Assembly: GCA_043808175.1 (NCBI GenBank)
Contig: JAZDFE010000007.1
Coordinates: 16,099-80,098, forward strand
Reading direction: 5' to 3'
Source of the DNA: Candidatus Omnitrophota bacterium
GTDB taxonomy: Bacteria > Omnitrophota > Omnitrophia > Omnitrophales > Aquincolibacteriaceae
Length of the DNA stretch: 64,000 nt
Part shown: piece by piece, positions 29,641-63,230 of the stretch
Position numbering within the stretch: the first letter of the stretch is position 1
Layout: the number at the start of each line of letters is the position of its first letter
Notes under the pieces: model-generated
Seen by the model: the letters and a program-made list of their open reading frames with translations, nothing else
Database searches by the model: none
What the model was told of the DNA's origin: nothing
Made by a program: the position numbers and the translations under genes

Positions 29641-29716
29641 ACAATGCGGGCCACGATCCACGCGTCACGCTTTTCGTGGCCCGTAGTTCATGACACAAGG
29701 AACGCGAAGGCAACAA

Positions 29717-31102
29717 ATGATTAGAACCTTTTTATACAATCTGGGGTTCATGGTGTTCGGGGTCTTTTATTTCCCGATTTTCCTGACAAAACTCCGTCAA
29801 GCCGAGGATCCGGGGGCGCTGTGGAAAGAACGCCGTGGGATCTTTCCGAAGGACTGGGCCGGAAAATTTGCCGGAAAAAAGATCGTCTGGCTTCACGCCG
29901 TGAGCGTGGGAGAAGTGATGGCCATTGAAAAGTTCATTCACGAATGGCTTGCCTCCGCGCCGGGATATGAACTGTTGCTAACGACCGTTACGCCGACCGG
30001 GCAGAGGATCGCGAAAAAACTCGCGGGCGAGCGGGTCCATGTCTGTTATTTCCCGTTCGACCTCACCCCGGTCGTGAAACATTTTCTCGATCTTTTCAGG
30101 CCGGTTTGTTTGTTGCTCGTGGAGACCGAGATCTGGCCGAACCTCTTGACCGAAGCCAAGCGACGGAACATTCCGGTGGGTGTAGTGAACGCCCGGCTCT
30201 CGGAACGTTCATTCAAAAGGTATAAGCTTTTTCCATGGCTTTTTAAACCCTTGTGGGAAAAACTAGATTTTGTGCTCACACAATCGGAAGAAGATGCGGC
30301 CCGTTTTCGGAAGTTGGGCGTTACGGAAGGATCCGTGCGAGATATGGGGAATATGAAATTCGATCAGGCAGAATGGGCCGCCGAGGGTGGGGTGGACGTG
30401 GCGGGATTGCGGCAGGCCTGGGGGTATGCCGCCGAAGATCTTGTATGGATCGCGGGCAGCACGCATCCGGGGGAAGAAGAAATGCTCATGGCCGCTTTTA
30501 AAGCGTTGCGCGAACGGTTTCCGGCGCTCAAATTGATCCTCGCGCCGCGCCACATCGAACGTTCGGAGAGTCTTTTGAAGCAATTGGGAAAATATGGTTT
30601 TAACATGGCTTCGTCAACAAGCCCAGTTCTCCATCAAAAAAAAGAAGGCCCGGGACCTGATCTGCAGATCCTGGATCGGCTGGGCATTCTCAAGAATCTG
30701 TACGGAATCGCAGACTTTGTGTTCATGGGCGGGAGCCTGATCCCTCACGGGGGTCAGAATCCGATCGAGCCCGCGCGTTTTAGCAAAGCTATCCTCCATG
30801 GACCACATGTTTTTAACTTTCACAAGATCTACCACCAGCTCGATCATGACGGTGGCGCTTTCAGGATCTCGGCTCCGGACGAACTGTCGTCCGCGGCGGC
30901 GGAGATCCTCGCGAATGAAAGCAGGCGTCATGAAATGGGGCAAAAAGCTTTTCAGATCGTCAACCGTCTACGGGGTGCCAGCAAACGTCAGGCCGGGTGG
31001 ATCCTGACGTTTCTCAGGAGCCGGTACTCTCAAGAAAGGATTACAAGCAATGGACAGCATGAAGAATTACTTTCGTCTCTTGGCAGAGGACAAGCAAAAT
31101 GA
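29717..31102 (+). CDS. waaA: 3-deoxy-D-manno-octulosonic acid (Kdo) transferase.
   Basis: An N-terminal membrane anchor and a GT30 core are present (WLHAVSVGEVMA, TVTPTGQ, LVETEIWPNL, FVGGSLIPHGGQNPIEPA). The 3' end overlaps lpxK by about 50 nt. Confidence 0.85.
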   Translation: MIRTFLYNLGFMVFGVFYFPIFLTKLRQAEDPGALWKERRGIFPKDWAGKFAGKKIVWLHAVSVGEVMAIEKFIHEWLASAPGYELLLTTVTPTGQRIAKKLAGERVHVCYFPFDLTPVVKHFLDLFRPVCLLLVETEIWPNLLTEAKRRNIPVGVVNARLSERSFKRYKLFPWLFKPLWEKLDFVLTQSEEDAARFRKLGVTEGSVRDMGNMKFDQAEWAAEGGVDVAGLRQAWGYAAEDLVWIAGSTHPGEEEMLMAAFKALRERFPALKLILAPRHIERSESLLKQLGKYGFNMASSTSPVLHQKKEGPGPDLQILDRLGILKNLYGIADFVFMGGSLIPHGGQNPIEPARFSKAILHGPHVFNFHKIYHQLDHDGGAFRISAPDELSSAAAEILANESRRHEMGQKAFQIVNRLRGASKRQAGWILTFLRSRYSQERITSNGQHEELLSSLGRGQAK

Positions 31103-32099
31103 TCCGACGAGCGGAGTTCTCTCCGCGCTTCTTTCTCTTGCGGCATGGGGGTACGGGCTCGGGGTCCGGACATTTCGCTGGCTTTATGAGAACAAGGTGT
31201 TGGCGCGCAAACGTCTTCCGTATCCGGTCGTCAGTGTCGGCAATCTGACTTGGGGCGGCACGGGGAAAACGCCTTTTGTGGAATACCTCGCGCGCAAGAT
31301 CGGTATACACCGGCGCGTGCCTCTGGTCCTCACGCGCGGCTACAGTCATGATGAGGCCTTGGAACTTCAGAATCATCTTCCGACCGCGGTGATCGGCGTC
31401 GGCAAGGATCGCGCGAAGGTCGCCGAGCGCGTCAAAACGGAAAAACGGCATGTGGATATCGCCATCCTCGACGACGGACTTCAGCATCAGATCCTTCAAC
31501 GGGACGTCGATATCGTGGTCGTCAACTCCTTGAACCCTTTTGGCAACGGAAAGCTCATTCCGCGCGGCATTTTGCGCGAACCTCTTACCGTCTTGAAGCG
31601 TGCGGCCATCATCGTGCTAACTCACGTGAATCTCGTAAGTCCCGAGGAGCTGGGGAAGCTCAAGGAAAAGATCAAGACCCTGGCACCTCAGGCGCAAATG
31701 GTCGAGACCCTCATGGTAGTGTTGTTCCTTTATCGCGCCAAGAGCTAGGTTCTGACGGCGATCGAGAAGATGACCGGCCGGCGCGTCGCAACTTTCGCAG
31801 CGGTAGGAACACCTAGGTCCTTCCAGCTCGTCTTGCAGCGTTTTCAACTCAAGACCGTCCGGAACTTTGAATTTCTGGATCACTATGAATATACGAAGAA
31901 AGATCTTTTGAAGATCAAGGAAGTCGCGCAGTCGGCCGGCGCCGAGGAGATCATCACAACGGAAAAGGATTTTTACCGTTCCCGCGGGTTAATCACGGAG
32001 ATGCTGAATCCGCTGGTTCTTGCCGCGCGGCTCCGGGTCGTGTCGGGAGAGGAAATCCTCACCGACCGGCTTTTCCGTTTATTAGGAGTGAGAAATTAA
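31050..32099 (+). pseudogene. lpxK: Tetraacyldisaccharide 4'-kinase LpxK, interrupted by a single in-frame TAG at 31746-31748. It splits into two same-frame ORFs, 31050..31748 and 31770..32099. It is either a pseudogene, a functional split gene, a readthrough gene or a sequencing error.
   Basis: An N-terminal P-loop is present (PVVSVGNLTWGGTGKTPFVEYLARKI). A C-terminal LpxK region is also present (RRVATFAAVGTPRSF...FLDHYEY...ITTEKD). Both halves are in frame 0 and are separated only by TAG. Confidence 0.6.
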
Positions 32100-34048
32100 T
32101 GGAAGATCTGCTCGATCGGACCGCTTATCTTGTGGCCCGCATGCTCATTTTTCTTTTTGGCCAAATCCCGCTTGCCGCGGGTCTTCGGATAGGCGATTTT
32201 TTAGGGCACTGTGTGTTTTTTGTCTCAAAAAAACGGCGCATTGCTTATATCAATCTGAAAACGGCGCTTGGAAGCCAATTAACGCCGGCCGAGCGCTGGA
32301 AAACCGTGCGCGATCATTTTGGATTTATGGGGCAATCGGTCGTGGAGGTGATGTCCTTTAAGCGGATGAAACGCAAGCATCACGATCTTAACGTCAAAAC
32401 CCATGACCTCGAGCGGTACGAAGCGCTTCTTCGTTCGGGACACGGCGGCGTTCTGATCACCGCTCATTTCGGGAACTGGGAGCTTCTTCAGGTCTGGTCC
32501 GGGCTTCGCGGTACGCCGATCCATATGCTGACACGCGAGCAGAAATATCCGAGACTCAACGGATTGATCAACGAGCTTCGCGAAAGCCATGGTTCGGTTT
32601 CTATCAGCCGGGGTGCCGGCATCCGTGGGCTGATTCGGGCGCTCCGGGAGGAAAAAATGATTGGGGTCCTGGGCGACCAGTCCGCCGGTAAGACCGAGGG
32701 GATCATCTTGCCGTTCTTGGGCCGGAGGACTACGGTCCCGACTGGGGCCTTCCAGCTGGCTCACCGTACGGATGCCTTGATTATGCCATTTTTTATCGTA
32801 AGGACCGGAGGCCCGGAGCACGAGGTTTATGCCGGGGAAGTTCTGAAAGACGATCCCTCTCTCGCGCCGCAGGCGCGTGTCGAGTTTCAAGCCCGGCAAT
32901 ACCTGAAGGTGCTCGAAGGTTTTATCCGGAAATTTCCGAACCAATGGCTCTGGGAGAACAAACGGTGGAAATACTGTTGGGACAGGAAGATCGTGATCCT
33001 CTCGGACGGCAAGGCCGGGCATTTCAAACAATCCGAGGTTGTGGCGGAAATGCTTGCAGGTTTCAAAGAATTTCACGGACGCCCCGGTCTTAAGTTTGAA
33101 ACGGAAGAGATCCACGTGGAATACCGCTCGGCGCTCCACCGGACGGCTTTATTCTTGACGGCACTTTTGATGAAACCCTGGATCCAGGGAAGACTTCACT
33201 GGCTCGCGCGCTTTTTTACGCCGGAAACTCAAAAGGCGATCGAACAAGCGAACGCGGATTTCATTATTGCGGCGGGTTCCGGGCTCGCGCCGCTTCAGAG
33301 GCTTCTCGCTCAAGAGACCGGCGCGAAGTCGATCGTGATCATGAACCCGCCCTTTCCTTATTCCGTGACGAATTATGATCTCGCGATCGTGCCGGCGCAT
33401 GATGGTGGCAGGGTCCCTAAACGGACGTTCCGCTGCGTGATCATGCCGAGCGGTTACAAGACTTCGGATCGCGAGGAGGATGTGAAACAGCTGCAAGCAA
33501 AACTGGGCGAAGGGGTTCGGCCGACCCTGGCGGTGTTTCTCGGCGGCGCAACACGAAATTATGATCTGACGGTCTCGGACGCGGAAAAACTTTGCTCGAC
33601 CTTAAAGCGTGCCAGCTCGCGCGCGGGAGACTACATGATCACCACGTCGCGGCGGACTTCCGTGCATGTGGAACGATTTCTGAAGAACGCGCTCGCGCGG
33701 GATCCGGCCTGCCGGTTTCTTATGATCGCGAATGAAGACAATCCGTCTTATGCGGCGGGCGGTATGTTAGGGCTCGCGGACCTCCTGATCGTGACGGAGG
33801 ACAGTCTCGCCATGATCTCGGAAGCTGTGGGAACGGGTAAACGCGTGATCGTGCTTAGCCTCGGGGAAGGAGAGCTTCCCAAAAAGCATTACCGTTTTCA
33901 TCAGATCCTTGTCCAACGGGGACTCGTGACCTTGAGTGGTCTGGCGGACCTGGAAAAGAATATCACAGGACTTCTTAAAAAGCCGGCCACGCCAGTCCTT
34001 CAACGTGAAAAAGACGCGCTCATCGAACGGTTGGGAGCTTTAATATGA
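32099..34048 (+). CDS. Two-domain protein. The N-terminal part is a LpxL/HtrB-type lysophospholipid (lipid A late) acyltransferase. The C-terminal part is a DUF1022/ELM1-like domain of about 330 aa.
   Basis: The acyltransferase motif is present (ITAHFGNWELL). The C-terminal half starts IVILSDGKAGHFKQSEV, which is typical of bacterial ELM1/DUF1022 proteins. Confidence 0.65.
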   Translation: MEDLLDRTAYLVARMLIFLFGQIPLAAGLRIGDFLGHCVFFVSKKRRIAYINLKTALGSQLTPAERWKTVRDHFGFMGQSVVEVMSFKRMKRKHHDLNVKTHDLERYEALLRSGHGGVLITAHFGNWELLQVWSGLRGTPIHMLTREQKYPRLNGLINELRESHGSVSISRGAGIRGLIRALREEKMIGVLGDQSAGKTEGIILPFLGRRTTVPTGAFQLAHRTDALIMPFFIVRTGGPEHEVYAGEVLKDDPSLAPQARVEFQARQYLKVLEGFIRKFPNQWLWENKRWKYCWDRKIVILSDGKAGHFKQSEVVAEMLAGFKEFHGRPGLKFETEEIHVEYRSALHRTALFLTALLMKPWIQGRLHWLARFFTPETQKAIEQANADFIIAAGSGLAPLQRLLAQETGAKSIVIMNPPFPYSVTNYDLAIVPAHDGGRVPKRTFRCVIMPSGYKTSDREEDVKQLQAKLGEGVRPTLAVFLGGATRNYDLTVSDAEKLCSTLKRASSRAGDYMITTSRRTSVHVERFLKNALARDPACRFLMIANEDNPSYAAGGMLGLADLLIVTEDSLAMISEAVGTGKRVIVLSLGEGELPKKHYRFHQILVQRGLVTLSGLADLEKNITGLLKKPATPVLQREKDALIERLGALI

Positions 34049-36141
34049 AGGTGATGCAGCTCTTGCCGGCGCTTGAGCTCGGCGGGACCGAGCGCGGGGT
34101 GGTGGATCTTGCGAAAGCCATGAAAAAAGAAGGGCACGCGACCCTGGTCGTTTCATCCGGCGGGGCGCTTGTGGCCGAACTCCAGAAGATCGGGATCCCG
34201 CATTACGGGCTACCCGTGCATCAGAAATCTCTGGCGAGTTTATTCCTGGTCGAAGAGCTGGTGAAGATCATCCAGCGGGAGCGCGTGGACATCATTCACG
34301 CCCGCAGCCGCGTCCCGGCCTGGCTCGGGTGGCTCGCGGCCCGCAAGACCGGCATTCCGTTCATCACGACCTGCCACGGACATTATTCTGTTCATCCGAT
34401 GAGCTTTGTCATGGGGTGGGGGAAGCGTGTGATCGTGGCATCGCATGCCATCGGCCGGAGAATGATCGATGAATTTCATGTTCCGCCGGACAGGATCCGT
34501 TTGGTCCCGCGCGGTGTGGATCTTTCACAGTTCACATTCTCATTCGCGAAATTCGAAAAGCACAAGGGGCCGATGAGGATCATCCATATCGGACGGTTCT
34601 CGCCGGCCAAAGGCCAGGTGGAATTCCTTAAGGCCGTTCATTTATTGCGTAGCCGGCTCCCTCATTTTGAAGTTTGGATCGTCGGCTCCGAAGCCCGCGG
34701 CAGGCACCGTTACACAGATCTGATGAAAAAAACGGTGCAACAGTTCGGGCTTGAGACCTGCGTCAAGATCCTCCCGCCGACGCGTGACGTCGCAGGACTT
34801 TTGGCCCAGTCCGATCTTCTGGTGCTTTCCTCGCTGATCCCGGAGCCTTTTGGGCGGGTGGTCATTGAGGCCGGTGCCGTGGGAACCCCTGTGGTCGCGA
34901 CCTGGTTGGGCGGCGTGCGGGATATTATTGATCACAACGAGACAGGCCTTCTATTCCCTCCAAGAAATATTCCCGCGATGGCCGAGGCCATGTACGAACT
35001 TTTGACGGACCGGGAAAAGGCCAAAGCATTCGCGGTAAAGCTTCGAAAAAAAGTAGAAGAGCAATTTAATCTGGAACAAATGGTCCGGAAAACGCTCGAG
35101 ATCTATGAGGAAGTCCGCAAGCGGCGGAGGATCCTCGTGATCAAGCTTGGGGCCATGGGAGATCTCATCCTGGTCGTGCCGAGTTTAAGGATGCTCAAGG
35201 AGCGCTTCCCGGATGCGGTGATCACGCTCCTGGTCGATCGCAAACTCGCGCCGATCGTGTCGGCATGTCCTTACCTGGACGATATGATCCTGGTGGACCG
35301 GAAAAAACTTTCGAACATTTTTTATCTTTTAAAGACCGCCCGGCGCATCCGCCGGGAAGGATTTGACATGTCCATCGATCTCCATAACAACAAATGGACG
35401 CATCTTCTGGCGTATCTCGGCGGCGCGGTCCAGCGTTTCGGTTTTGAGCGCGGGAGATGGGGATGGCTTTTGAACCGTCCCGACAGGACCTTTGAGGTCG
35501 GGGATTCGCCTCTCCGCCATCAATTCCGGGTGCTGTCCAAGGCCGGGGTCATCAAATTCGATGACATGTTGGAGCTTTGGGTGAAATCCGAGAGCCTTGA
35601 AAAAGCACGCCAGATGATCGGTACGCTCGAGCCCAAAGAATCTACCCGGATCGTCGGGTTCGTGATGGGGTCCAGCCCCAACTGGCCGAGCAAACGCTGG
35701 CCTTCGGAGCATTTTGTCGATTTGGCAAAAAGGCTCTTTGAAAAATATGACGCGCGGATCGTCCTTATCGGCTCTCCTGAAGAAACGGATCTCGGGACTC
35801 CTTTTTATTCTTTCGGGTCCGGCAAGATCCTCGATCTCATCGGGAAAACAGCGTTGGAGGAACTGCCGGCTTTTTTCAAACAGCTTCATTTGGTGGTAAC
35901 AGGGGATACGGCGCCGCTTCACATGGCTGCGGCCATGAATGTCCCGGTCGTGGCCTTGTTTGGCCCGACGGACGCCAAACGTCATATTCCTCCCGGAAAA
36001 AAGATCGACGCGCTCTCACATCATCTGCCATGCCAGCCCTGCTACGAGGGTGTCTGCAAAGCCAAAGAAACGAAGGCCTGTCTTACGCATATTTCCGTGG
36101 AAGAAGTTTTCGAACATTGCCAAAGAGCGCTCGTGCCATGA
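34045..36141 (+). CDS. Fusion of a GT4 (GT-B, RfaG-like) glycosyltransferase of about 370 aa to a GT9 heptosyltransferase-like domain of about 330 aa.
   Basis: GT4 motif is present (EPFGRVVIEAGAVGTPVVATWLGGVRDII). The GT9 part reads RILVIKLGAMGDLILVVPSLRMLKERFPDA and GDTAPLHMAAAMNVPVVALFGPTD. Confidence 0.75.
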   Translation: MKVMQLLPALELGGTERGVVDLAKAMKKEGHATLVVSSGGALVAELQKIGIPHYGLPVHQKSLASLFLVEELVKIIQRERVDIIHARSRVPAWLGWLAARKTGIPFITTCHGHYSVHPMSFVMGWGKRVIVASHAIGRRMIDEFHVPPDRIRLVPRGVDLSQFTFSFAKFEKHKGPMRIIHIGRFSPAKGQVEFLKAVHLLRSRLPHFEVWIVGSEARGRHRYTDLMKKTVQQFGLETCVKILPPTRDVAGLLAQSDLLVLSSLIPEPFGRVVIEAGAVGTPVVATWLGGVRDIIDHNETGLLFPPRNIPAMAEAMYELLTDREKAKAFAVKLRKKVEEQFNLEQMVRKTLEIYEEVRKRRRILVIKLGAMGDLILVVPSLRMLKERFPDAVITLLVDRKLAPIVSACPYLDDMILVDRKKLSNIFYLLKTARRIRREGFDMSIDLHNNKWTHLLAYLGGAVQRFGFERGRWGWLLNRPDRTFEVGDSPLRHQFRVLSKAGVIKFDDMLELWVKSESLEKARQMIGTLEPKESTRIVGFVMGSSPNWPSKRWPSEHFVDLAKRLFEKYDARIVLIGSPEETDLGTPFYSFGSGKILDLIGKTALEELPAFFKQLHLVVTGDTAPLHMAAAMNVPVVALFGPTDAKRHIPPGKKIDALSHHLPCQPCYEGVCKAKETKACLTHISVEEVFEHCQRALVP

Positions 36142-36174
36142 TTTTCCTTAATCAAAAAAATAAATGGGTGATCA

Positions 36175-36307
36175 TGATAGCCCAAACTTTTCATTTATTT
36201 TCCAAAACGGTAGTTTGGACAGCCCCAATTTCAACTCCGTTGAAATTGATAGATATTGGGACAGTCCAAGTCACCATCCATGAAGAACAAAGGAAGACTT
36301 GGGCGCT
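36175..36307 (+). repeat. Family-2 intergenic repeat, copy R3. It is hairpin-rich and ends at the start codon of the next heptosyltransferase.
   Basis: It shares the gtccaagtc...agacttgggcg module with the copy at 63150-63192. Hairpins: caatttcaa/ttgaaattg and ccaagtc/gacttgg. Confidence 0.6.
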
Positions 36308-37330
36308 ATGAAGATCCTCGCCGTGATGAAAAATTGGCTTGGGGACCTGCTTTTCCAGATGCCCGCGCTAGATTTGATCAAACAAAAATACCCCGAAGCC
36401 TCGATCGTTTGTATCGCACCCGAAAGGTGCCGGGAAATCCTCGAGGCTTACCCGGTGGTTTCGGAGGTCCTGAGCTTTGACGAAAAAAGCACGCACCGTT
36501 CCTGGCTCGCGAGAATGCGATTCGTTCTGGAACTGAGAAAGCGCGGACCCTGGGACCAGGGCTATCTCTTTCATCGTTCCCGTTCGCGAGCGGCGTTTCT
36601 CGCGCTCGCTGGAGTGAAAGAACGCATCGGTTACGGAAAAGGGAGAAAAGGATTCTTGTCGTGGGCGGTCGAAGAGCCCGCGTTGCCGATGCACCAGCTG
36701 GATTATTTTTTTAATATGATGAAAAGGGCCGGATTTGAGCTTCCCGCGGAAAGGGAATACCGGTTTTTTTACAAAGAAGAAGATGAACAAGTCGCGGGTG
36801 AGATTCTCGAGATGTATGGTATCGGAAAGAGCACGAAATACATTTGCTTTCATTTAGGTGCGAATTGGGAGCCCAAGCGCTGGCCGGTCGCGCATTTTGC
36901 CGCGCTCGCAGAGAAGATCGAAGCGAAATGGCAACTTCCGGTCGTAGTAACCGGCTCTCAAAATGACGAGCCCCTCTTTGAAGATTTCCTATCCAGGGTC
37001 CGTCGTGCGAAGATCATTTCTTTGATCGGAAAAACAGGACTACGCATTTCCGCCGTGATCTACAAGCATGCGGGATGTCTTGTGACCGGAGATTCCGGGC
37101 CTATGCACATCGCTTCCGGAGTCGGCGCCCCGGTCGTTGCCCTTTTTGGTCCCACGGACCCGAAACTCACCGGACCCCGCGGGAGAGGCGAGAGCATCGT
37201 GTTGCAATATGTTCCGTCAGGTTACATGGTCCCTTTTTTCGGCAAGGAACTTCCGGCAGAAGGCTGGCTTTCGCGCATCACTCCGAAGGAGGTTTTGAAT
37301 GCGGTCGAGAAAATCTTGAGAAAAACATGA
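36308..37330 (+). CDS. GT9 ADP-heptose:LPS heptosyltransferase (WaaF/WaaC family). The start is refined to ATG, giving MKILAV.
   Basis: GT9 motifs are present (MKILAVMKNWLGDLLFQMPALDLIKQKYPEA and GDSGPMHIASGVGAPVVALFGPTDP). Confidence 0.8.
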   Translation: MKILAVMKNWLGDLLFQMPALDLIKQKYPEASIVCIAPERCREILEAYPVVSEVLSFDEKSTHRSWLARMRFVLELRKRGPWDQGYLFHRSRSRAAFLALAGVKERIGYGKGRKGFLSWAVEEPALPMHQLDYFFNMMKRAGFELPAEREYRFFYKEEDEQVAGEILEMYGIGKSTKYICFHLGANWEPKRWPVAHFAALAEKIEAKWQLPVVVTGSQNDEPLFEDFLSRVRRAKIISLIGKTGLRISAVIYKHAGCLVTGDSGPMHIASGVGAPVVALFGPTDPKLTGPRGRGESIVLQYVPSGYMVPFFGKELPAEGWLSRITPKEVLNAVEKILRKT

Positions 37331-38289
37331 ATATTCTTGTCGTGACGTTGAGCAATTTCGGGGACGTGATCCTGACGACCCCCGTGATCATGGCACTTGC
37401 CCGGAAATATCCCGAGGCTCGGATCACGGTGGTGGTGGGGCCGCGCGCGAGAAGTGTTCTTCAGAGAAGCCCCGATATCCATAAGATCGTGATCTACGAC
37501 AAGAAGGCTTCTTTCCTGGAAAAATTAAAATTCATCGCAGAACTTCGCAAAGTAAAATATCACTGCGTCGTGGACCTGCGTAATACCGCCATTCCGTTCC
37601 TGGTCTCCTGCGGCAAGAAAACCCCTCTTTTCAGGAAATTCACCAAGGTCAACATGCGGGATCGTCACCTCGAAATGCTCGCGACAGTGGAACCCGGCAT
37701 TCCCCATCCCTCTCCTTTTCATTTTTTTAACCAAGAGGATGAGATCTTTGCGATGCGCACTCTGGATGCTGCGGGGATCACGGAAAAGAAAGGATGGATC
37801 CTGGTGGCGGCAGGGGCGGCCAGCGAGAGAAAACGGTGGCCGGTTCAATCCTTTAAGGAAGTGATCCAAGCGCTTCACGAGAGGACCGGCAAGAAGATCC
37901 TCCTGGTGGGAACCCTTAATGAAAGACCGGTGGCCGACAGCATTCTGAAAAAACTTCCAGGAATCGTCGGGATCCTTTGCGGTGACCTTGTTTTGCCCGA
38001 GACGGCAGCGCTTATCGCGAACGCTTCGCTTGTGATCGCTAACGACAGCGCGATCATGCATCTTGGGTTCGAATTGGGCACGCCGACTGTCGGGATCTTC
38101 GGACCGACAGACCATGAGAAATACGGACACGAAGGTCCGAAATTCCGCATTGCGCGGGAAAAGGCCCAAGGTTGTGCCTGCAGGTCCGATCAATTGCCTC
38201 GCGCCGAGCGGAGTTGTTTTCACGGACTTAAACCCGAAAAAGTGATCGGACTTTCTTTGGAGCTTCTGAATGCCACTCAATCTTCCTGA
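37327..38289 (+). CDS. GT9 heptosyltransferase. The true ATG start, MNILVVTL, overlaps the upstream stop (ATGA). The listed 404-aa ORF from 37075 is an out-of-register extension.
   Basis: GT9 motifs are present (MNILVVTLSNFGDVILTTPVIMALARKYPEA and NDSAIMHLGFELGTPTVGIFGPTDHEKYG). Confidence 0.8.
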   Translation: MNILVVTLSNFGDVILTTPVIMALARKYPEARITVVVGPRARSVLQRSPDIHKIVIYDKKASFLEKLKFIAELRKVKYHCVVDLRNTAIPFLVSCGKKTPLFRKFTKVNMRDRHLEMLATVEPGIPHPSPFHFFNQEDEIFAMRTLDAAGITEKKGWILVAAGAASERKRWPVQSFKEVIQALHERTGKKILLVGTLNERPVADSILKKLPGIVGILCGDLVLPETAALIANASLVIANDSAIMHLGFELGTPTVGIFGPTDHEKYGHEGPKFRIAREKAQGCACRSDQLPRAERSCFHGLKPEKVIGLSLELLNATQSS

Positions 38290-40666
38290 CACTCCGCGCA
38301 TTCTCATCACGCGCACCGATCGCATCGGGGACCTCGTCCTCACCACGCCGCTCTTCAAAGCCTTGCGGGAAAAATTCCCGAAAGCCTGGATCGCGGCGGT
38401 TGTGTTCCTCGAACACCGCGAAATCGTACAGGAAAATCCTTTTCTGGATGAGGTGATCCTCTATGATAAAAAAGGGAGCGAGCGCGGTCTTTGGGGGCAG
38501 TTCTGTTTTAGCCAAAAACTCCGGAACAAAAAATTTAATGTGGTGATCCATGCCCATGGTACGAACAGGATGCATCTTGCCGCGTGGTTCGCGGGGATCC
38601 CCCTGCGCATAGGTTACGCGCGCCGCGCGCCGTGGACGCTCACGCATGTTCATCCTTATAATAAAAAAGAAGGAAAAAAACAGGAGGCCGAATATCTCTT
38701 TGAGCTTCTGGATCTTTTGGGCGTGACCCCTCCCAAAGAGATCGAGACTTTTTTCCCCATCACGGACCGATCCGTCCGCTCTTTCGAGAGTTTGCGTGTG
38801 TTTCGCAAAATCCCGTACGATCGGCCCTGGATCGTTCTCAATCCCTCGGCGAGCGATGTGACCAAAATGTGGCCGGCGGAGCGCTTTGCCGAACTTGTGA
38901 CCCGGATCCAAAAGAATCATCCAAGCGTTTTTATTGCGATAGGGACCGTCCAGGACCGTTCTCTCATCGAAAGATTGATCAAAAACACTCCGGTTCCGGT
39001 CTTTGATCTGAGCGGAAGACTTTCCCTTGGAATGCTAGGCGCGCTTTTGAAGCGATCGGCCCTGCTTGTCTCCAACGATTCCGGGCCCGTGCATATCGCG
39101 ACGACGGTTGGCACGCCGGTGGTTTCCATTTTTGGGAGGTATGAGGCAGGTCTTGGGCCCAACCGCTGGCAACCGCTTGGGGAGCGTTCGCGCGTGGTCG
39201 CGAAGGATGTTTCGCGCATTCCGGAAGCCGTGCGGAAGTTCACCTACATCGATGAGATCACGGTGGATGAAGTTTTTCGGACCGCAAATGATCTATTGGG
39301 TAGTAGCGGCAAAAAGTTTTTGCGTGAAGAGGAGCCTTCCACGAAAGGGATATCGGGTGGAGGAGGGAGGATGGCAGAAACGGTTCCTCGCCATCCGCCA
39401 TCCGTCATCCGCCATCCGCAAAAGATCCGCAGGGTTTTGATCGTGCACCCCTACGGAATCGGGGATCTTCTCTTTGTGACGCCAGTTATGCGGGCGCTTC
39501 GTCTCGTCCCGACGGTCGAGACCGTCGATCTTCTTTTGGGATCCCGCACGCGGGAGGTCGTGGAGAATAATCCTCACATCAATGATATTTTCGTCGTGGA
39601 TAAGGACCGCGCTCATCGTCAGACTTGGCTCGAAAATCTTCGCGACCACTGGAAACTGGGCCGGAAACTCCGGGCCAAGCATTACGACCTGATCCTGGAT
39701 TATTCGCTGCAGCGCGAACATGCTTTTTGGGGTCGGTTCTTTCTCGGTATTCCGAAATGCGCGGGGTTTGCGTATAAAAAGCGCGCGACATTCCACAATA
39801 TCCGTTTTCCACTTCCAGAGGGGTTCTGGAAACGGCATGCCGTGGATTTTTATTGTGATCTTGCGGAGGCAGCCAGGATTCCCGTGGAAGACCGTTTTCT
39901 GGAATATTTTTTTCCCAAGCCCCATTCTCCATCAGAAGGATCAAAGGTTAATGGGACTAGCCCTGGCGACCTTTTAGGAAAAGAAAATAGATGCCAGGGC
40001 AAGCACGAATCTTTGATCGAAGCAGAGATTGCCGGAAAGTTAAAACTTCTGCCGGAACGTTTTCTCGCGGTCGCTCCCGGCGGCGGGGATTCGTGGGGGA
40101 AGGAAGCTTCTTTCAAGCGCTGGCCTGTGAAGTATTTCGCGGCATTGATCGAAAAACTTCAAATGGAACGAAACATCCGCGGCGTCGCCATCCTGGGCAG
40201 TCGTTCCGAGCGGGCGCTGTGTGAAGAATTGCAGGCGATGATCGAGCCCCATTCTCCATCAAAAGCATCAAAGGTTAATGGGACTAGTCCCGGCAACCTT
40301 TTAAGAAACGAAAATAGAAGTCAGGACAAGCCACCCTCAGTCGTGCTGGCGGGGGAGACAAGCCTCACGCAAACGGCCATGGTCCTCAAAAAGTCCGCGC
40401 TTTTTGTCGGCAACGACGGAGGCCTGGTTCATTTGGCGCATGCGCTTCATGTGCCGCTCCTGGCTTTTTACGGGCCCGTGCCGCCCGAAGTGTACGGACC
40501 CTACCCGCCATCGCCTGATGCGATCGCCATCTTCAAACGAGGATTAAAATGCCGTCCGTGTTACTACAAATTCCGCTATCATAAAAAGTGTCCAACGATC
40601 GCGTGTCTTACAGATTTAAAGCCGGAAGAGGCGCTTGAACAGACAAAGGGTCAGGTGCCTTTTTGA
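38270..40666 (+). CDS. 798-aa ORF with two complete GT9 heptosyltransferase domains in tandem. The second begins at an in-frame AGGAGG ribosome-binding site plus ATG at 39371. The second domain carries two family-1 repeat insertions.
   Basis: Domain 1 reads ILITRTDRIGDLVLTTPLFKALREKFPKA ... NDSGPVHIATTVGTPVVSIFGR. Domain 2 reads RVLIVHPYGIGDLLFVTPVMRAL ... GNDGGLVHLAHALHVPLLAFYGP. There is no stop between the two domains. Confidence 0.7.
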   Translation: MPLNLPDTPRILITRTDRIGDLVLTTPLFKALREKFPKAWIAAVVFLEHREIVQENPFLDEVILYDKKGSERGLWGQFCFSQKLRNKKFNVVIHAHGTNRMHLAAWFAGIPLRIGYARRAPWTLTHVHPYNKKEGKKQEAEYLFELLDLLGVTPPKEIETFFPITDRSVRSFESLRVFRKIPYDRPWIVLNPSASDVTKMWPAERFAELVTRIQKNHPSVFIAIGTVQDRSLIERLIKNTPVPVFDLSGRLSLGMLGALLKRSALLVSNDSGPVHIATTVGTPVVSIFGRYEAGLGPNRWQPLGERSRVVAKDVSRIPEAVRKFTYIDEITVDEVFRTANDLLGSSGKKFLREEEPSTKGISGGGGRMAETVPRHPPSVIRHPQKIRRVLIVHPYGIGDLLFVTPVMRALRLVPTVETVDLLLGSRTREVVENNPHINDIFVVDKDRAHRQTWLENLRDHWKLGRKLRAKHYDLILDYSLQREHAFWGRFFLGIPKCAGFAYKKRATFHNIRFPLPEGFWKRHAVDFYCDLAEAARIPVEDRFLEYFFPKPHSPSEGSKVNGTSPGDLLGKENRCQGKHESLIEAEIAGKLKLLPERFLAVAPGGGDSWGKEASFKRWPVKYFAALIEKLQMERNIRGVAILGSRSERALCEELQAMIEPHSPSKASKVNGTSPGNLLRNENRSQDKPPSVVLAGETSLTQTAMVLKKSALFVGNDGGLVHLAHALHVPLLAFYGPVPPEVYGPYPPSPDAIAIFKRGLKCRPCYYKFRYHKKCPTIACLTDLKPEEALEQTKGQVPF
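39917..40005 (+). repeat. Family-1 intragenic repeat, copy B. It is in-frame in GT9 domain 2 and translates as PHSPSEGSKVNGTSPGDLLGKENRCQGKHE.
   Basis: It is homologous to copies A and C. The internal inverted repeat is gccctggcg (39960-39968) pairing with tgccagggc (39992-40000). Confidence 0.8.
40244..40331 (+). repeat. Family-1 intragenic repeat, copy C. It is in-frame in GT9 domain 2 and translates as PHSPSKASKVNGTSPGNLLRNENRSQDKPP. Its hairpin arm is degenerate.
   Basis: By eye it is about 80% identical to copy B over some 88 bp (cccattctccatca...aaggttaatgggactag...aaaatagaag). Confidence 0.8.
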
Positions 40667-40723
40667 AAAAAGGTGTCCGATTCCTTTAACAACACTTGAC
40701 GGAACTATCCGGAACTGATCCCC

Positions 40724-41515
40724 ATGAAAAAATCCGCGTTCTTTCTTCTAGCGCTGGTCTTTCTTATTCCGATGAGTTCTGCCCAAGAGACGGAAAAGAT
40801 CTTCTCCTACTCCGAAAAATCCGCTACGAAGATCTTTCTGGGAGAGAAAATAAAATTCGAAATCAATTATCTCGGGATCATCGTGGGGGAAGCGGAGTCT
40901 GAGGTCAAAGGAATCGTTAAAGTGAATGGTCGCGACGCCTATCACATAGAGATCAACATTCGCTCGCGAGCGGTGATCGATTGGATCTACAAGGTTCGGG
41001 ACACACATCATACCTATATCGACGCCGAGCATTTTTACTCCCTCCGATATAAAAAGAAGATCAAGGAGGGCCGCTACTGGACGGACGAGTCAATGGAATA
41101 CGACCAGGACGAACACATCGGCCGCTTTCATTCCCGCAAGGACAACAGCCGAAAAGAGATGTTCATCCCCAAACACGTTCAGGATCAGATCTCCTGTTGC
41201 TACTGGCTCCGGCTCCAGGATCTTAAACCCGGTTCCAAGACCCTGATCCCGGTGAATGCGGACGAGAAGAACTGGGATCTTGAAGTCATTACGCATGGCG
41301 TCAAGGAAATGAAGATTGACCCTGTAGGCGTTTTTCAGGCGGTTGAGATCGAGCCGATCATTTTGTTCGAAGGTTTTTTTGTCCGGCGCGGAAAAGTCCG
41401 TGGCTGGATGAGCATGGACGAGCGTCGCATCCCGCTTGTGATGAAGGTCAAGGTTCCCGTTCTCGGCGAAGTCGTCGCCACGCTCGCCGGCTACGAACCC
41501 GGCGTCAGTTCCTAG
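40724..41515 (+). CDS. Secreted DUF3108-like protein.
   Basis: It has a signal peptide (MKKSAFFLLALVFLIPMSSAQE). The DUF3108 call rests on my recollection of that family's Tyr/Trp-rich beta-rich composition. Confidence 0.45.
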   Translation: MKKSAFFLLALVFLIPMSSAQETEKIFSYSEKSATKIFLGEKIKFEINYLGIIVGEAESEVKGIVKVNGRDAYHIEINIRSRAVIDWIYKVRDTHHTYIDAEHFYSLRYKKKIKEGRYWTDESMEYDQDEHIGRFHSRKDNSRKEMFIPKHVQDQISCCYWLRLQDLKPGSKTLIPVNADEKNWDLEVITHGVKEMKIDPVGVFQAVEIEPIILFEGFFVRRGKVRGWMSMDERRIPLVMKVKVPVLGEVVATLAGYEPGVSS

Positions 41516-41644
41516 CCGGACTCCGTTGCTTGCAAGGTTCTCCCCCCGTAAATTAACCCGTTCTTTCTTGTGTCTCACGTGATAAAATCCAACTCGCTTT
41601 AAACACAAGTATGAATCCCAAGGGAGATCGCAAGGCGTCATCGC

Positions 41645-43780: not shown

Positions 43781-44796
43781 ATGAAGACCACATCCTTGCC
43801 GCTGAGTAATTTGGAAAAAAGACGTTTTCTCGAAATCCTTGAAAGATTCCAGGAGGTCCGCATCCTCGTGATCGGGGATTTCATTCTGGATCAATTTGTC
43901 TGGGGGAGCGTGAAACGTATTTCCCCCGAGGCGCCGGTTCCGGTAGTCAAGGTCGAGAGGGAATCTTTTATGCCCGGGGGATCGCTTAACGTGGCTAATA
44001 ATATCCGGTCTCTTCGAGGTCAGGTTTGTCCTTGCGGAGTGGTAGGCCGCGATTTTTATGGGCGTATGTTGCTTAGAGCAATGCGCAAACAGGGGATCGA
44101 GACAGGCGGGATCGTTTATGATCCGGCGCGTCCGACGTCCCTTAAAACCCGCGTGATTGCACATTCCCAGCAGGTGGTCCGTTTTGACCGTGAAAAAACA
44201 GATGACGTCGCCAAGGCATATCTTTTAAAGATCCTGAAATTTGTCCGCGAGAACATCAGCCGAATGGATGTGGTGGTTCTTGAAGATTACGGGAAAGGTG
44301 TGATGCAACCCTTTCTTTTAAAAGAGATTGTCCGCCTTGCCAAGAAGTTCAAAAAACCCGTGCTTGTAGATCCAAAGGAAAAACATTTCGTCTATTACCA
44401 GGGCGTGACCTGCATCACCCCGAACCGTAGTGAAGCCTACACAGGCTATGAACGCACGCATGGTTCCTGTTACAAAACGCCGGGGCTCGAAGAGGTGGGG
44501 TGGGGCCTGATGAAAAAATTGAAACTTGATTCCGTGCTGATCACGCTCGGCGAGGATGGCATGGCGCTTTTTGAAAAAAATAAAAAACTAACCCTAGTCC
44601 CGACCGCTGCGCGCGAAGTCTATGATGTCTCCGGCGCCGGGGATACGGTGATTGCGACACTTGCGGTTGCATTGGCGGCGGGCGCGAAAATGCAAGAAGC
44701 CGCGAAGATTTCGAACCTTGCCGCTGGTATTGTGGTCGGAAAACTTGGCACTGCAACGGTCGCTCCCGACGAACTTGAAGAAGCGATCCGGAAGGC

Positions 44797-44800
<4 letters not shown>
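43781..44800 (+). CDS. D-glycero-beta-D-manno-heptose-7-phosphate kinase. This is the RfaE/HldE domain I only (HldA-type, ribokinase/PfkB fold).
   Basis: PfkB motifs are present (RILVIGDFILDQFVWGSVKRISPEAPVPVV ... DVSGAGDTVIATLA). Confidence 0.8.
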
Positions 44801-52210: not shown

Positions 52211-52350
52211 TCCCAATTTTTATCAATTGAAGCGAAGCGGTCCCAATCCCAATCAATCGAAGCGTAGCTGAGATTGGGGCCGTCTCGACTACCATAAATG
52301 AAAAGAAAATAAAAGTCGCGACGGAAATTGGGGCAATCCTGATTACCATT
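52209..52350 (+). repeat. Family-2 intergenic repeat, copy R1, between hpf and ptsN.
   Basis: It shares two modules with copy R2 at 63085-63230: gtcccaa-N4-tatcaatt...agcgg and ca(t)aa(a)tgaaaagaaaa-aaaag...cggaaattgggg. Confidence 0.6.
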
Positions 52351-52412
52351 CATCAAAAAAAATGAAAGTCAGGATAGTTCCACAACCTTTTTCAATCAGG
52401 AGGAATACATCC

Positions 52413-63079: not shown

Positions 63080-63084
63080 CTGTC
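63058..63084 (+). repeat. Left copy of a roughly 26-bp direct repeat (gaaaaaaatcttagacaATGActgtc). It contains the pyk stop codon. The right copy at 63221-63247 contains the ABC-F start codon.
   Basis: A 16-bp exact core, aatcttagacaatgac, is present in both copies. Flanks differ at 2 positions. Confidence 0.75.
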
Positions 63085-63230
63085 CCAACACCTATCAATT
63101 TCTACGTAGCGGCACTTGATTCTGTTTCAAAATGAAGGTAATCAGTGCCGCCCAAGTCGCCATTGATTAAAAGAAAACAAAGACTTGGGCGGAAATTGGG
63201 CGGTTATCATCAACCCTAATGGAAAAGAAT
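63085..63230 (+). repeat. Family-2 intergenic repeat, copy R2. It has an 11-bp perfect stem (ccgcccaagtc/gacttgggcgg) and a second hairpin (gcggcacttgatt/aatcagtgccgc).
   Basis: It is homologous to R1 (52209-52350) and R3 (36175-36307); see the shared modules listed there. Confidence 0.65.

What the first reader, a model, noticed from the sequence alone, without database searches (positions are those of the whole stretch)
34045..40666. Array of five GT9 heptosyltransferase domains in four consecutive ORFs, including a GT4-GT9 fusion and a double-GT9 ORF with an internal RBS+ATG
**What the sequence shows.**
- Consecutive ORFs encode, in order: a GT4 glycosyltransferase fused to a GT9 domain (698 aa), a GT9 (36308-37330), a GT9 (37327-38289), and a 798-aa ORF with two full GT9 domains.
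- At 39360-39373 the sequence ggaggagggaggATGgca provides a strong Shine-Dalgarno plus ATG, exactly at the start of the second domain (MAETVPRHPPSVIRHPQKIRRVLIVHPYGIGD…). It is in frame and has no upstream stop.

**Interpretation.**
- This suggests either a recent gene fusion through stop-codon loss, or deliberate dual expression of a fused and a stand-alone enzyme.
- Typical inner-core LPS loci carry 2-3 heptosyltransferases (WaaC, WaaF, WaaQ), not five.
- Fusions of GT9 to GT4, and of GT9 to GT9, are rare.
- Together with the LpxL-DUF1022 fusion upstream, this points to an unusually heptose-rich or otherwise non-canonical LPS core.
Basis: partly seen in the sequence, partly recalled or inferred. 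Interest (0 to 1): 0.6.

Follow-up and report, generated by a model that had tools for sequence, protein, structure and literature searches.

The report
Omnitrophota five-heptosyltransferase LPS core operon
This is the standard lipopolysaccharide-core gene cluster of the uncultured phylum Omnitrophota, with five old, intact GT9 sugar-transferase modules whose fusion pattern differs between relatives; the odd 798-aa gene is a lineage-specific fusion lengthened by two in-frame copies of a small mobile repeat.

Summary
Four packed ORFs (34045-40666) encode one GT4 and five GT9 domains, and GGAGGAGGGAGGATG sits in frame at 39359-39373.

The array is not peculiar to this genome. In 84 related Omnitrophota loci the order waaA-lpxK-(LpxL-Elm1)-(GT4-GT9)-GT9-GT9-GT9-[GT9] is conserved. 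GT4-GT9 is fused in 62 of 64 loci.

The five GT9 domains are ancient paralogues (22-28% identical to each other). All keep the catalytic Asp, KxW, Asp and His residues.

Only the fusion boundaries vary: C-D, B-C, B-C-D or D-E. D-E fusion is derived and rare (3 of 41 comparison loci). Very close relatives keep two genes, with the second starting MRTLRR.

The window's internal ATG lies in a disordered linker, 20 codons upstream of the second domain. It is not the ancestral start, and the closest fused relative lacks it. The motif alone is no commoner than chance.

The extra length comes from two 84-nt in-frame insertions of a dispersed repeat. Most of its copies found sit in sense orientation inside or at the edge of ORFs in unrelated genes, as with Rickettsia RPEs.

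Verdict: an ordinary LPS-core operon for its phylum, with undescribed fusion plasticity and an unexpected in-frame mobile element.

The parts
29690..31102 (+). waaA (Kdo transferase), first gene of the conserved lipid A-core block
   Evidence: PF04413 at 1.1e-64. Same position in related loci.
31050..32099 (+). lpxK (lipid A 4'-kinase), interrupted by an in-frame TAG at 31746-31748
   Evidence: PF02606 hits both pieces. The TAG replaces a Lys codon conserved in 7 relatives, whose gene is 346-349 aa.
32099..34048 (+). LpxL acyltransferase fused to an Elm1/DUF1022 domain (649 aa)
   Evidence: PF03279 plus PF06258. Fused in 53 of 53 related loci where both parts were seen.
34045..35100 (+). GT4 glycosyltransferase domain of the 698-aa ORF A
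   Evidence: PF00534 at 9.8e-35 and PF13439 at 1.2e-30. No NCBIfam equivalog cut-off is reached.
35101..36141 (+). GT9 domain A9 of the 698-aa ORF
   Evidence: PF01075 at 3.3e-31. TIGR02195 HepII scores 142.9, above the 134.6 cut-off. GT4-A9 is fused in 62 of 64 loci; 938 homologues, the top 120 full length.
36184..36262 (+). Copy of a second ~80-nt dispersed repeat, filling the A-B spacer (in L001 and in the P0001 locus A and B overlap)
   Evidence: nhmmer finds 45 copies in 2.0 Mb, in both orientations. No A-B spacer in L001 or the P0001 locus.
36308..37330 (+). GT9 gene B (340 aa)
   Evidence: PF01075 at 1.3e-29. TIGR02195 scores 142.0, above 134.6. Syntenic orthologues.
37327..38289 (+). 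GT9 gene C (320 aa)
   Evidence: PF01075 at 2.2e-26. Below every equivalog cut-off. Fused to D in 32 of 77 related loci.
38270..39301 (+). GT9 domain D (aa 1-344 of the 798-aa ORF)
   Evidence: Sequence hit to PDB 3TOV at 1.6e-28. AF2 pLDDT mostly 80-95. Foldseek TM 0.83-0.87 to 3TOV.
39302..39418 (+). D-E linker (aa 345-383), predicted disordered and specific to the fused lineage
   Evidence: pLDDT below 50 for aa 345-383. Absent from two-gene relatives.
39359..39373 (+). SD-like GGAGGAGGGAGG followed by in-frame ATG (Met368)
   Evidence: The Met is present in L001/P0004, P0001, P0002, P0003 and P0005. It is absent in L006, P0006 and L004/P0012.
39389..39416 (+). Four tandem copies of the heptamer CGCCATC (one imperfect) inside the linker
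   Evidence: Read. L006 has one copy, and its linker is 7 aa (21 nt) shorter here.
39419..40666 (+). GT9 domain E (aa 384-798), the variable fifth module
   Evidence: GT9 models hit it. Catalytic residues are kept. It is a separate gene in most relatives and absent in L014 and L018.
39922..40005 (+). In-frame insertion 1 of the 84-nt dispersed repeat (boundary ambiguous by the 6-nt CAAGCC repeat)
   Evidence: Filled versus empty sites. Encodes aa 551-582, and pLDDT is below 50 for 552-583. Shared only with P0001.
40243..40326 (+). In-frame insertion 2 of the same repeat
   Evidence: Filled versus empty sites; unique to the window. Encodes aa 660-691, and pLDDT is below 50 for 661-685.
40724..41515 (+). 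DUF3108 gene, which usually follows E
   Evidence: PF11306 at 6.3e-34. Present with E in 28 loci.
43781..44800 (+). hldA-type D-glycero-beta-D-manno-heptose-7-phosphate kinase
   Evidence: TIGR02198 scores 385.7, above the 345 cut-off. A PfkB gene is present in 53 of 84 related loci.
17953..18041 (+). Third window copy of the 84-nt repeat, between leuA and aroE
   Evidence: blastn and nhmmer hits. Local context.

Best explanation
Positions 29690-43180 hold the conserved lipid A and core-oligosaccharide assembly operon of an Omnitrophota bacterium.

**The five GT9 domains.** The five domains (A9, B, C, D, E) are ancient paralogues. Each has a syntenic orthologue in other Omnitrophota, and each keeps the catalytic machinery of an inverting GT-B enzyme.

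**Likely function (inferred).** They probably act in sequence at the cytoplasmic face of the inner membrane. They would extend Kdo-lipid A with heptose taken from ADP-heptose, while the fused GT4 domain adds a hexose.

**Fusions.**
- GT4-A9 and LpxL-Elm1 are old fusions found across the phylum.
- The boundaries among B, C, D and E have been fused repeatedly in different lineages. This argues that these enzymes work together (inferred).
- In the window's shallow lineage, D's stop and E's own start (MRTL) were lost. The result is one 798-aa protein with a disordered linker of about 40 residues.
- The fused polypeptide is the functional form. The SD-like run plus ATG in the linker is at most an optional extra start.

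**ORF length.** Compared with relatives of 735-758 aa, the ORF is lengthened by two 84-nt in-frame insertions of a mobile repeat. They encode disordered surface loops and probably do not destroy the enzyme.
For: **Domain identity**
- Pfam and NCBIfam identify all five domains as GT9.
- Sequence hits to 3TOV and to WaaF (1PSW).
- The AF2 model has pTM 0.71 and shows two GT-B units. Foldseek gives TM 0.76-0.87 to 3TOV, WaaF and WaaC.

**Catalytic residues**
- The equivalents of Asp13, Lys195 (KxW), Asp269 and His274 are present in all five window domains. They are nearly invariant in 39-84 orthologues of each. Residue roles are taken from bioRxiv 10.1101/2022.06.13.495986.

**Age of the paralogues**
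- The window domains are 22-28% identical to each other. Orthologues average 41-50%.

**Synteny and fusion states**
- Shown: - GT4-A9 has 938 homologues. The top 120 are all about 700 aa with both domains, and every named one is from Omnitrophota.

**D-E junction**
- Only 3 of 41 comparison loci are fused. Two-gene relatives start E at MRTLRR, with D's stop abutting it.
- L006 has no possible internal start, yet its E N-terminus is 95% identical to the window's.

**Heptose supply and context**
- The heptose kinase matches TIGR02198 above its cut-off.
- kdsB, kdsA, kdsD, a second lpxL, lptC/A and lptB lie downstream.

**Repeat insertions**
- Filled and empty sites differ by exactly 84 nt.
- The low-confidence loops of the model coincide with the insertions.
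Against: - No biochemical data exist for any Omnitrophota GT9.
- Only A9 and B pass an equivalog cut-off (HepII). None passes HepI, so it is unknown which domain, if any, adds the first heptose to Kdo.
- Only the kinase of the ADP-heptose pathway is in the window. gmhA, gmhB, hldC and hldD could not be checked.
- lpxK carries an in-frame stop. Part of the operon in this genome may therefore be decaying, or the sequence may contain errors.
- Trees built from D and from E disagree about how the fused and two-gene forms interleave. The number of fusion events is unresolved.
- The internal Met is kept in 6 of the 9 fused sequences, the window included. This leaves room for a functional internal start.
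Confidence: 0.7

Rival explanations
1. Dual expression. The ORF makes both the 798-aa D-E fusion and a separate E enzyme of about 431 aa, started at ATG 39371 with the upstream GGAGG as ribosome-binding site.
For: - GGAGG lies 7 nt before an in-frame ATG, in an unstructured linker.
- The G-x-G-R-M motif is kept in L001/P0004, P0001, P0002, P0003 and P0005, although the rest of the linker varies.
Against: - L006, P0006 and L004/P0012 are fused without any internal Met. L006 has no in-frame start codon at all in the linker.
- In P0005 the SD has decayed to GGAATAGGAAGG.
- The motif GGAGG-N5-9-ATG is as frequent as chance in this window, and none of its other nine occurrences is at the start of a gene identified here.
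- The ATG is not the ancestral E start.
Confidence: 0.25
2. Some of the GT9 domains are not LPS heptosyltransferases. They may use another nucleotide sugar, or they may glycosylate another acceptor such as a protein (as the TibC/BAHT enzymes do) or another glycolipid.
For: - C, D and E fall below every curated equivalog cut-off.
- E has Gly where HepII has Ser270, in 36 of 39 orthologues.
- E is gained, lost or paired with DUF3108 in different lineages.
Against: - All five sit between lpxL and the kds/lpt genes, next to a heptose kinase, in an order conserved across the phylum.
- The heptose-sensing Asp and the His are conserved in every orthogroup.
- TibC is a much weaker structural match (TM 0.50-0.56) than WaaF or WaaC.
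Confidence: 0.2
3. The second half of the 798-aa ORF is a decaying pseudogene, disabled by the two repeat insertions and by loss of its own start.
For: - There are two insertions within one domain.
- lpxK in the same operon has a nonsense codon.
- E is dispensable in L014 and L018.
Against: - There is no stop or frameshift in 431 codons.
- All catalytic residues are kept.
- Apart from the insertions, the E sequence aligns closely with that of two-gene relatives.
- Both insertions are exactly 84 nt, and each coincides with a low-confidence stretch of the model that carries no helix or strand.
- The same repeat sits in frame in housekeeping genes such as uvrA and ftsK.
Confidence: 0.08
4. The D-E fusion is an assembly or sequencing artefact: a frameshift error that joined two genes.
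For: An apparent nonsense codon in lpxK hints at possible sequence errors.
Against: - The same fusion, with a homologous linker, occurs in independent assemblies from NCBI, JGI, ENA and Logan: P0001-P0006, L001 and L006.
- E's ancestral start codon is also absent, which a single error would not explain.
Confidence: 0.02

Closest known systems
E. coli LPS inner-core heptosyltransferases WaaC (HepI), WaaF (HepII) and WaaQ (HepIII), CAZy family GT9
   Same: - Same Pfam family.
- Same GT-B fold (TM 0.76-0.83).
- Same catalytic Asp, KxW, D-S/T-G and His motifs.
- Same genomic company: waaA, lpx and kds genes and a heptose kinase.
   Different: - Five modules instead of two or three.
- Only A9 and B reach the HepII equivalog score, and none reaches HepI or HepIII.
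- The modules are variably fused to each other and to a GT4 domain. The E. coli enzymes are single-domain proteins (my own knowledge).
Veillonella parvula GT9 protein, PDB 3TOV (function not established)
   Same: Best sequence match (1.6e-28) and best structural match (TM 0.83-0.87) to domain D.
   Different: It is a single-domain protein of 349 aa from a diderm Firmicute, only 23-24% identical. It gives no information on substrate.
Rosetta-stone gene fusions of consecutive pathway enzymes (for example bifunctional HldE in the ADP-heptose pathway), and the multi-enzyme fusion proteins reported for Omnitrophota
   Same: - Adjacent, translationally coupled genes of one pathway are fused in some lineages and separate in others.
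- Omnitrophota are reported to have a general tendency toward multi-enzyme polypeptides (bioRxiv 10.64898/2026.06.07.730766).
   Different: - Here the fused partners are paralogous transferases, not different enzyme classes.
- At least four different fusion patterns occur among the same four genes.
Rickettsia palindromic elements (RPEs): selfish repeats inserted in frame into protein-coding genes
   Same: - A short dispersed repeat with internal hairpins.
- Inserted in frame and in sense orientation into unrelated housekeeping genes.
- Encodes a conserved hydrophilic peptide placed in predicted loops. RPE features are taken from PMC10969869.
   Different: - A different phylum.
- Shorter: 84 nt against about 150 bp.
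- Sequence similarity to RPEs was not tested.
- An apparent 6-nt target duplication (CAAGCC), and no terminal inverted repeats found.

Membership tests
GT9 glycosyltransferases (Pfam PF01075, CAZy GT9) | Significant match to the family profile above Pfam's gathering score | tested here: met
   All five domains match. Scores are 93-201 bits against a cut-off of 22. The split halves all hit the GT9 NCBIfam models.
GT9 glycosyltransferases (Pfam PF01075, CAZy GT9) | GT-B fold of two Rossmann-like domains resembling WaaC and WaaF | tested here: met
   Tested for D and E only. The AF2 model has pLDDT 77 and pTM 0.71. Foldseek gives 3TOV TM 0.83-0.87, 1PSW 0.83 and WaaC 0.76-0.78. A9, B and C were not modelled.
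GT9 glycosyltransferases (Pfam PF01075, CAZy GT9) | Catalytic-base Asp (GD motif), donor-binding Lys (KxW), heptose-sensing Asp and His (D-S/T-G-x-x-H) | tested here: met
   Present in all five window domains and nearly invariant in each orthogroup.
GT9 glycosyltransferases (Pfam PF01075, CAZy GT9) | Uses ADP-heptose as donor | not testable with these tools
   Support is contextual only: an hldA-type kinase above its cut-off lies 3 kb downstream.
Heptosyltransferase II (WaaF; NCBIfam TIGR02195 equivalog) | Score above the curated cut-off of 134.6 bits | tested here: met
   Met by A9 (142.9) and B (142.0) only. C (109.7), D (109.0) and E (112.1) do not reach it.
Heptosyltransferase I (WaaC; NCBIfam TIGR02193 equivalog) | Score above the curated cut-off of 185.3 bits | tested here: not met
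   The best score among the five domains is 95.9 bits.
Heptosyltransferase III (WaaQ; NCBIfam TIGR02201 equivalog) | Score above the curated cut-off of 170.2 bits | tested here: not met
   The best score is D at 115.6 bits.
Gene with a functional internal translation start (two isoforms) | SD and start codon conserved across all fused orthologues | tested here: not met
   The Met is present in L001/P0004, P0001, P0002, P0003 and P0005. It is absent in L006, P0006 and L004/P0012.
Gene with a functional internal translation start (two isoforms) | Direct evidence of initiation at the internal codon | not testable with these tools
   Needs expression or proteomic data.
RPE-like or MITE-like in-frame mobile repeat (for the 84-nt element) | Many dispersed copies with nucleotide-level similarity in unrelated loci | tested here: met
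   99 copies in 2.0 Mb of fetched loci, in 90 distinct flanking contexts, with 85% mean column identity. Note that 73 of these loci were retrieved because they matched the repeat.
RPE-like or MITE-like in-frame mobile repeat (for the 84-nt element) | Inserted in frame within ORFs of unrelated genes | tested here: met
   49 of 99 copies are internal to sense ORFs and 26 lie at ORF edges. Hosts include UvrA, FtsK, histidine kinases, helicases, acyl-CoA dehydrogenase, WaaA and GT9.
RPE-like or MITE-like in-frame mobile repeat (for the 84-nt element) | Orthologous filled and empty sites with sharp boundaries | tested here: met
   At both window sites, 7 relatives lack exactly 84 nt.
RPE-like or MITE-like in-frame mobile repeat (for the 84-nt element) | Target-site duplication | tested here: inconclusive
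   CAAGCC flanks both window insertions and occurs once in several empty sites. Only two sites were examined, and the L009 site is less clear.
RPE-like or MITE-like in-frame mobile repeat (for the 84-nt element) | Internal palindromes or hairpins | tested here: met
   Two stems, with 97.3% of cells paired. One pair shows CG in 28 copies and AU in 20. This may reflect two subfamilies rather than repeated compensation.
RPE-like or MITE-like in-frame mobile repeat (for the 84-nt element) | Terminal inverted repeats and a partner transposase | tested here: not met
   Inspection of the consensus ends shows no terminal inverted repeats. No search for a transposase was made.

The most novel reading that the evidence does not exclude
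The 84-nt repeat inside domain E belongs to a previously undescribed family of selfish DNA in Omnitrophota. It colonises protein-coding genes in frame and in sense orientation, duplicates a CAAGCC target, and adds a disordered peptide loop (approximately KPHSPSKESKVNGTSPGNLSGKENRGQGK). This would be a counterpart of the Rickettsia RPEs outside the Rickettsiales.

Separately, the shifting fusions among five sequential GT9 modules suggest that the LPS core of this phylum is built by a physically coupled assembly line.
Probability: 0.55. Interest if true: 0.6.

Novelty: new variant of a known kind. Interest (0 to 1): 0.42.

Why it matters
- **LPS in an uncultured phylum.** No paper found in the searched library describes the lipopolysaccharide of Omnitrophota. 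A conserved block of four or five intact GT9 modules, a GT4-GT9 fusion and an LpxL-Elm1 fusion predicts an unusual, probably heptose-rich core. It also gives defined proteins to test.
- **Fusions as evidence of partnership.** The different fusion patterns of the same genes act as a natural Rosetta stone. They indicate which transferases work side by side.
- **The in-frame repeat.** It shows that invasion of protein-coding genes by small mobile elements, best documented in Rickettsia, also occurs in a free-living or episymbiotic phylum. It also explains odd length differences between orthologues in metagenome annotations.
- **For the original question.** The main lesson is cautionary. An arrangement that looks exceptional against the E. 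coli textbook is ordinary for its own phylum.

Tried and rejected
- **Exact-sequence look-up.** The 798-aa protein is not on record, so the source genome is not in the collection.
- **Rfam.** There is no match in the window or at the repeat.
- **Assigning domains to HepI, HepII or HepIII.** NCBIfam equivalogs place only A9 and B, both as HepII. No WaaC-type domain could be named.
- **SD plus ATG as a statistical anomaly.** Rejected: 10 matches against 11.2 expected.
- **Recent paralogues.** Rejected: 22-28% identity between domains, and each has orthologues across the phylum.
- **Ancient D-E fusion.** I held this view, because P0012 at 36-39% identity is also fused. I dropped it after the locus survey showed that close relatives have two genes.
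- **Counting fusion events.** Neighbour-joining trees of D and of E disagree. The count stays unresolved, beyond a minimum of two origins or some re-splitting.
- **Closest relative's DNA.** The DNA of P0001's contig was not available.
- **Promoter and terminator scan.** It gave nothing decisive inside the array.
- **Literature.** Searches found no description of the Omnitrophota GT9 array, of GT9-GT9 fusions, or of the repeat.
- **Terminal inverted repeats.** None were found on the 84-nt element.
Full report

Yes. The ORF list shows 34045-36141 (698 aa), 36299/36308-37330, 37075/37327-38289 and 38270-40666 (798 aa) on the + strand.

The reading-frame details match the finding:
- ATG 37327 overlaps the preceding stop as ATGA.
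- The 798-aa ORF starts 20 nt before the previous stop.

Pfam places GT4 families plus PF01075 in the 698-aa ORF. It places PF01075 in each single ORF, and PF01075 with three matched stretches in the 798-aa ORF. When the ORFs are split into halves, every GT9 half hits the heptosyltransferase models.

The sequence GGAGGAGGGAGGATG is at 39359-39373, in frame.

Two corrections are needed:
- Met368 is not at the domain boundary. It lies in a linker, 20 codons before the first strand of domain 2.
- GGAGG-N5-9-ATG occurs 10 times in the window against 11.2 expected from shuffles. The motif alone is therefore not beyond chance.

**2. Whose genome, and what surrounds the array?**

Homologues that carry names come almost entirely from Candidatus Omnitrophota.

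The array sits in a block devoted to lipid A and core synthesis:
- Upstream: waaA, lpxK and an LpxL-Elm1/DUF1022 fusion.
- Immediately downstream: DUF3108 and DUF1846.
- Further downstream: a heptose-7-phosphate kinase (TIGR02198, 385.7 bits against a cut-off of 345), then kdsB, pyrG, kdsA, kdsD, a second lpxL, lptC/A and lptB.

**3. The array is typical of the phylum.**

I fetched 5 loci through protein hits. I fetched 79 more from GTDB species representatives, where at least 569 stretches encode a relative. I then labelled their ORFs by blastp with the window's domains.

The order waaA | lpxK | LpxL-Elm1 | GT4-A9 | [GT4] | B | C | D | [E] | [DUF3108] ... hldA is conserved.

| Feature | Count in comparison loci |
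|---|---|
| LpxL-Elm1 fused | 53 of 53 |
| GT4-A9 fused | 62 of 64 |
| C-D fused | 32 of 77 |
| B-C fused | 4 of 71 |
| D-E fused (loci with both D and E) | 3 of 41 |

- The two unfused GT4-A9 cases look like split genes.
- C-D fusion occurs mostly in a clade that has an extra GT4 and lacks E.
- In L002, B-C-D forms one protein of 1070 aa with E separate.
- A search with the 698-aa protein returned 938 homologues. The top 120 are all about 700 aa, 53-93% identical, and carry both domain sets.

Four or five GT9 modules and the GT4-GT9 fusion are therefore the rule in this phylum.

**4. Old paralogues, all apparently active.**

The window's five GT9 domains are 22-28% identical to each other. 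Each orthogroup averages 41-50% identity across species.

The following residues are present in all five window domains and nearly invariant in 39-84 orthologues of each:
- the catalytic-base Asp in the GD motif;
- the donor-binding Lys in KxW;
- the heptose-sensing Asp;
- the downstream His.

Their roles are taken from work on E. coli HepI and HepII.

Only A9 and B exceed an equivalog cut-off, that of HepII. None reaches HepI or HepIII. Acceptor specificities therefore cannot be assigned.

Domain D's best solved relative is the uncharacterised GT9 structure 3TOV, followed by WaaF. An AlphaFold model of the 798-aa protein (pLDDT 77, pTM 0.71) shows two GT-B units. Foldseek gives TM 0.76-0.87 to 3TOV, WaaF and WaaC.

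**5. The D-E fusion.**

After the first alignment I thought the fusion was old, because P0012 at 36-39% identity is also fused. The locus survey overturned that view.

*The ancestral state is two genes.*
- Close relatives have two genes. L013, L009, L011, L010 and L012 are 87-97% identical to the window in the N-terminus of E.
- In these relatives D's stop abuts or overlaps E's start, usually in a different frame.
- E begins M-R-T-L-R-R-V-L-I-V-H-P-Y. More distant two-gene relatives use the same or a very similar start. That is the ancestral state.

*The fused forms share a new linker.*
- The fused forms are the window, P0001-P0006, L001 and L006. Apart from P0006, whose linker is much more diverged, they share a linker of the form ...GGGRM.E..TV.RHPPS.I.HP.KIRR... 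The old start is replaced by QKIRR or similar.
- On the E tree, six of them form one clade. P0005 and P0006 form another, and L004/P0012 is far away.
- The D tree interleaves them differently.
- The fusion is thus derived and shallow. It arose at least twice, or was re-split in some lineages.

*The internal Met is not conserved throughout.*
- It is kept in L001/P0004, P0001, P0002, P0003 and P0005.
- It is missing in L006, P0006 and L004/P0012.
- L006 has no in-frame start codon at all in its linker, yet keeps an intact E.
- In P0005 the SD has decayed.

*Linker properties.*
- It is predicted to be disordered over aa 345-383.
- It contains four tandem CGCCATC heptamers (39389-39416). L006 has one copy and is exactly 21 nt shorter here.

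I conclude that the fused polypeptide is the working form. An internal start is possible but not required.

**6. Why 798 aa?**

Fused relatives are 735-758 aa long. The window's second domain contains two 84-nt insertions that are 89% identical to each other, at 39922-40005 and 40243-40326. A third copy lies between leuA and aroE at 17953-18041.

- Seven relatives have empty sites lacking exactly 84 nt. Both insertions are flanked by CAAGCC, which occurs once in several of the empty sites.
- Insertion 1 is shared only with P0001. Insertion 2 is unique to the window. L009 has a copy 12 codons away from site 1.
- The low-confidence segments of the AlphaFold model (552-583 and 661-685) coincide with the inserted peptides.

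A metagenome scan with a 23-nt core pattern found 73 stretches. A profile search then found 99 copies in 2.0 Mb of fetched loci, in 90 distinct flanking contexts. Many of these loci were retrieved because they matched the repeat, so this is not an unbiased density.

- 49 copies lie inside long sense ORFs and 26 at sense ORF edges. Only one is internal and antisense, and it is an artefact of tandem copies.
- Nearly all genic copies use one frame, encoding roughly KPHSPSKESKVNGTSPGNLSGKENRGQGK. Two other frames of the consensus are also open.
- Host genes are unrelated: uvrA, ftsK, histidine kinases, helicases, an acyl-CoA dehydrogenase, waaA and GT9 genes.
- Two hairpins are conserved, with 97.3% of cells paired.
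- There is no Rfam match.

The closest precedent is the Rickettsia palindromic element.

**7. How it most likely works.**

*Shown:*
- five intact GT9 modules and one GT4 module;
- a conserved operon context with a heptose kinase;
- variable fusion of neighbouring modules.

*Inferred:*
- The modules act in turn on Kdo-lipid A at the inner membrane, using ADP-heptose, to build a heptose-rich core.
- The repeated independent fusions reflect physical cooperation between them.
- The D-E protein works as one polypeptide with a flexible tether.
- The repeat-encoded loops are tolerated surface decorations.

*Rivals, with my confidence in each:*
- dual expression from Met368, 0.25;
- non-heptose donors or non-LPS acceptors for some modules, 0.2;
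- decay of E into a pseudogene, 0.08;
- an assembly artefact, 0.02.

**8. Novelty and score.**

The proteins are already in public databases in large numbers, auto-named heptosyltransferase II. I found no paper describing the array, its fusions or the repeat. One preprint notes a general tendency toward multi-enzyme fusion proteins in Omnitrophota.

The GT9 array is a new variant of a known kind, and it is ordinary for its phylum. The in-frame repeat is the more surprising item. Overall interest is moderate.

Noticed in passing
window 39922-40005, 40243-40326 and 17953-18041; also L009:9083-9170, L015:12512-12600, L014:11014-11098 and others: An 84-88-nt dispersed repeat inserted in frame and in sense orientation into unrelated genes: GT9, waaA, uvrA, ftsK, histidine kinases and helicases. 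It has two conserved hairpins and an apparent CAAGCC target duplication, and it resembles the Rickettsia RPEs.
   Followed up: yes
window 36184-36262 (A-B spacer), 52240-52317, 52322-52370, 63082-63183: A second dispersed repeat of about 80 nt containing a 10-bp hairpin (CAATTTCAAC...GTTGAAATTG). It has 45 copies in the fetched loci, in both orientations. Fourteen copies directly adjoin copies of the first repeat, which suggests composite elements. In the window it creates the 166-nt gap between ORFs A and B; these ORFs overlap in L001 and in the P0001 locus.
   Followed up: partly
window 31746-31748: lpxK has an in-frame TAG where seven relatives have a conserved Lys codon. Two neighbouring residues also differ, while the rest of the gene is intact and highly conserved. 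This is either a very recent nonsense mutation or a sequence error.
   Followed up: partly
window 39389-39416: Four tandem copies of the heptamer CGCCATC lie in the D-E linker. L006 has one copy, a difference of exactly three units, so the frame is kept. A change of one unit would shift the frame of domain E.
   Followed up: partly
window 32099-34048 and 53 related loci: The LpxL acyltransferase is fused to an Elm1/DUF1022 (GT-B-like) domain in every Omnitrophota locus where both parts were seen. The function of the second domain in lipid A synthesis is unknown.
   Followed up: partly
window 40666-40724, compared with L001:12241-13005 and the P0001 locus: Close relatives carry a gene for a 4Fe-4S ferredoxin-domain protein of about 255 aa between the D-E gene and DUF3108. 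The window has only a 57-nt gap there.
   Followed up: no
alignment A1, about aa 313-330 of the 798-aa ORF (window about 39210-39260): In other clades domain D has a C-terminal Cys motif (GCIxCLAHxCxxxFxCL). The window's clade has lost it (SRIP----EAVRKFTYIDEI). Domains A9, C and E of the window keep Cys-rich C-terminal motifs.
   Followed up: no
L014 and L018 (whole loci): These two fairly close relatives lack the fifth GT9 module (E) but keep DUF3108. E is therefore an accessory module. In L014 a copy of the repeat lies at the end of the ORF upstream of gene C.
   Followed up: partly
L075 (whole locus); L107:7015-7189: In L075, waaA and lpxK appear fused into one 805-aa ORF. In L107, two to three copies of the 84-nt repeat lie in tandem inside a histidine-kinase gene.
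   Followed up: no
L009:8454-8536: The 3' tail of gene D in L009 encodes ...SCHSRGGGNPE..., which looks like a translated copy of yet another short repeat (cattcccgcggaggcgggaatcc).
   Followed up: no
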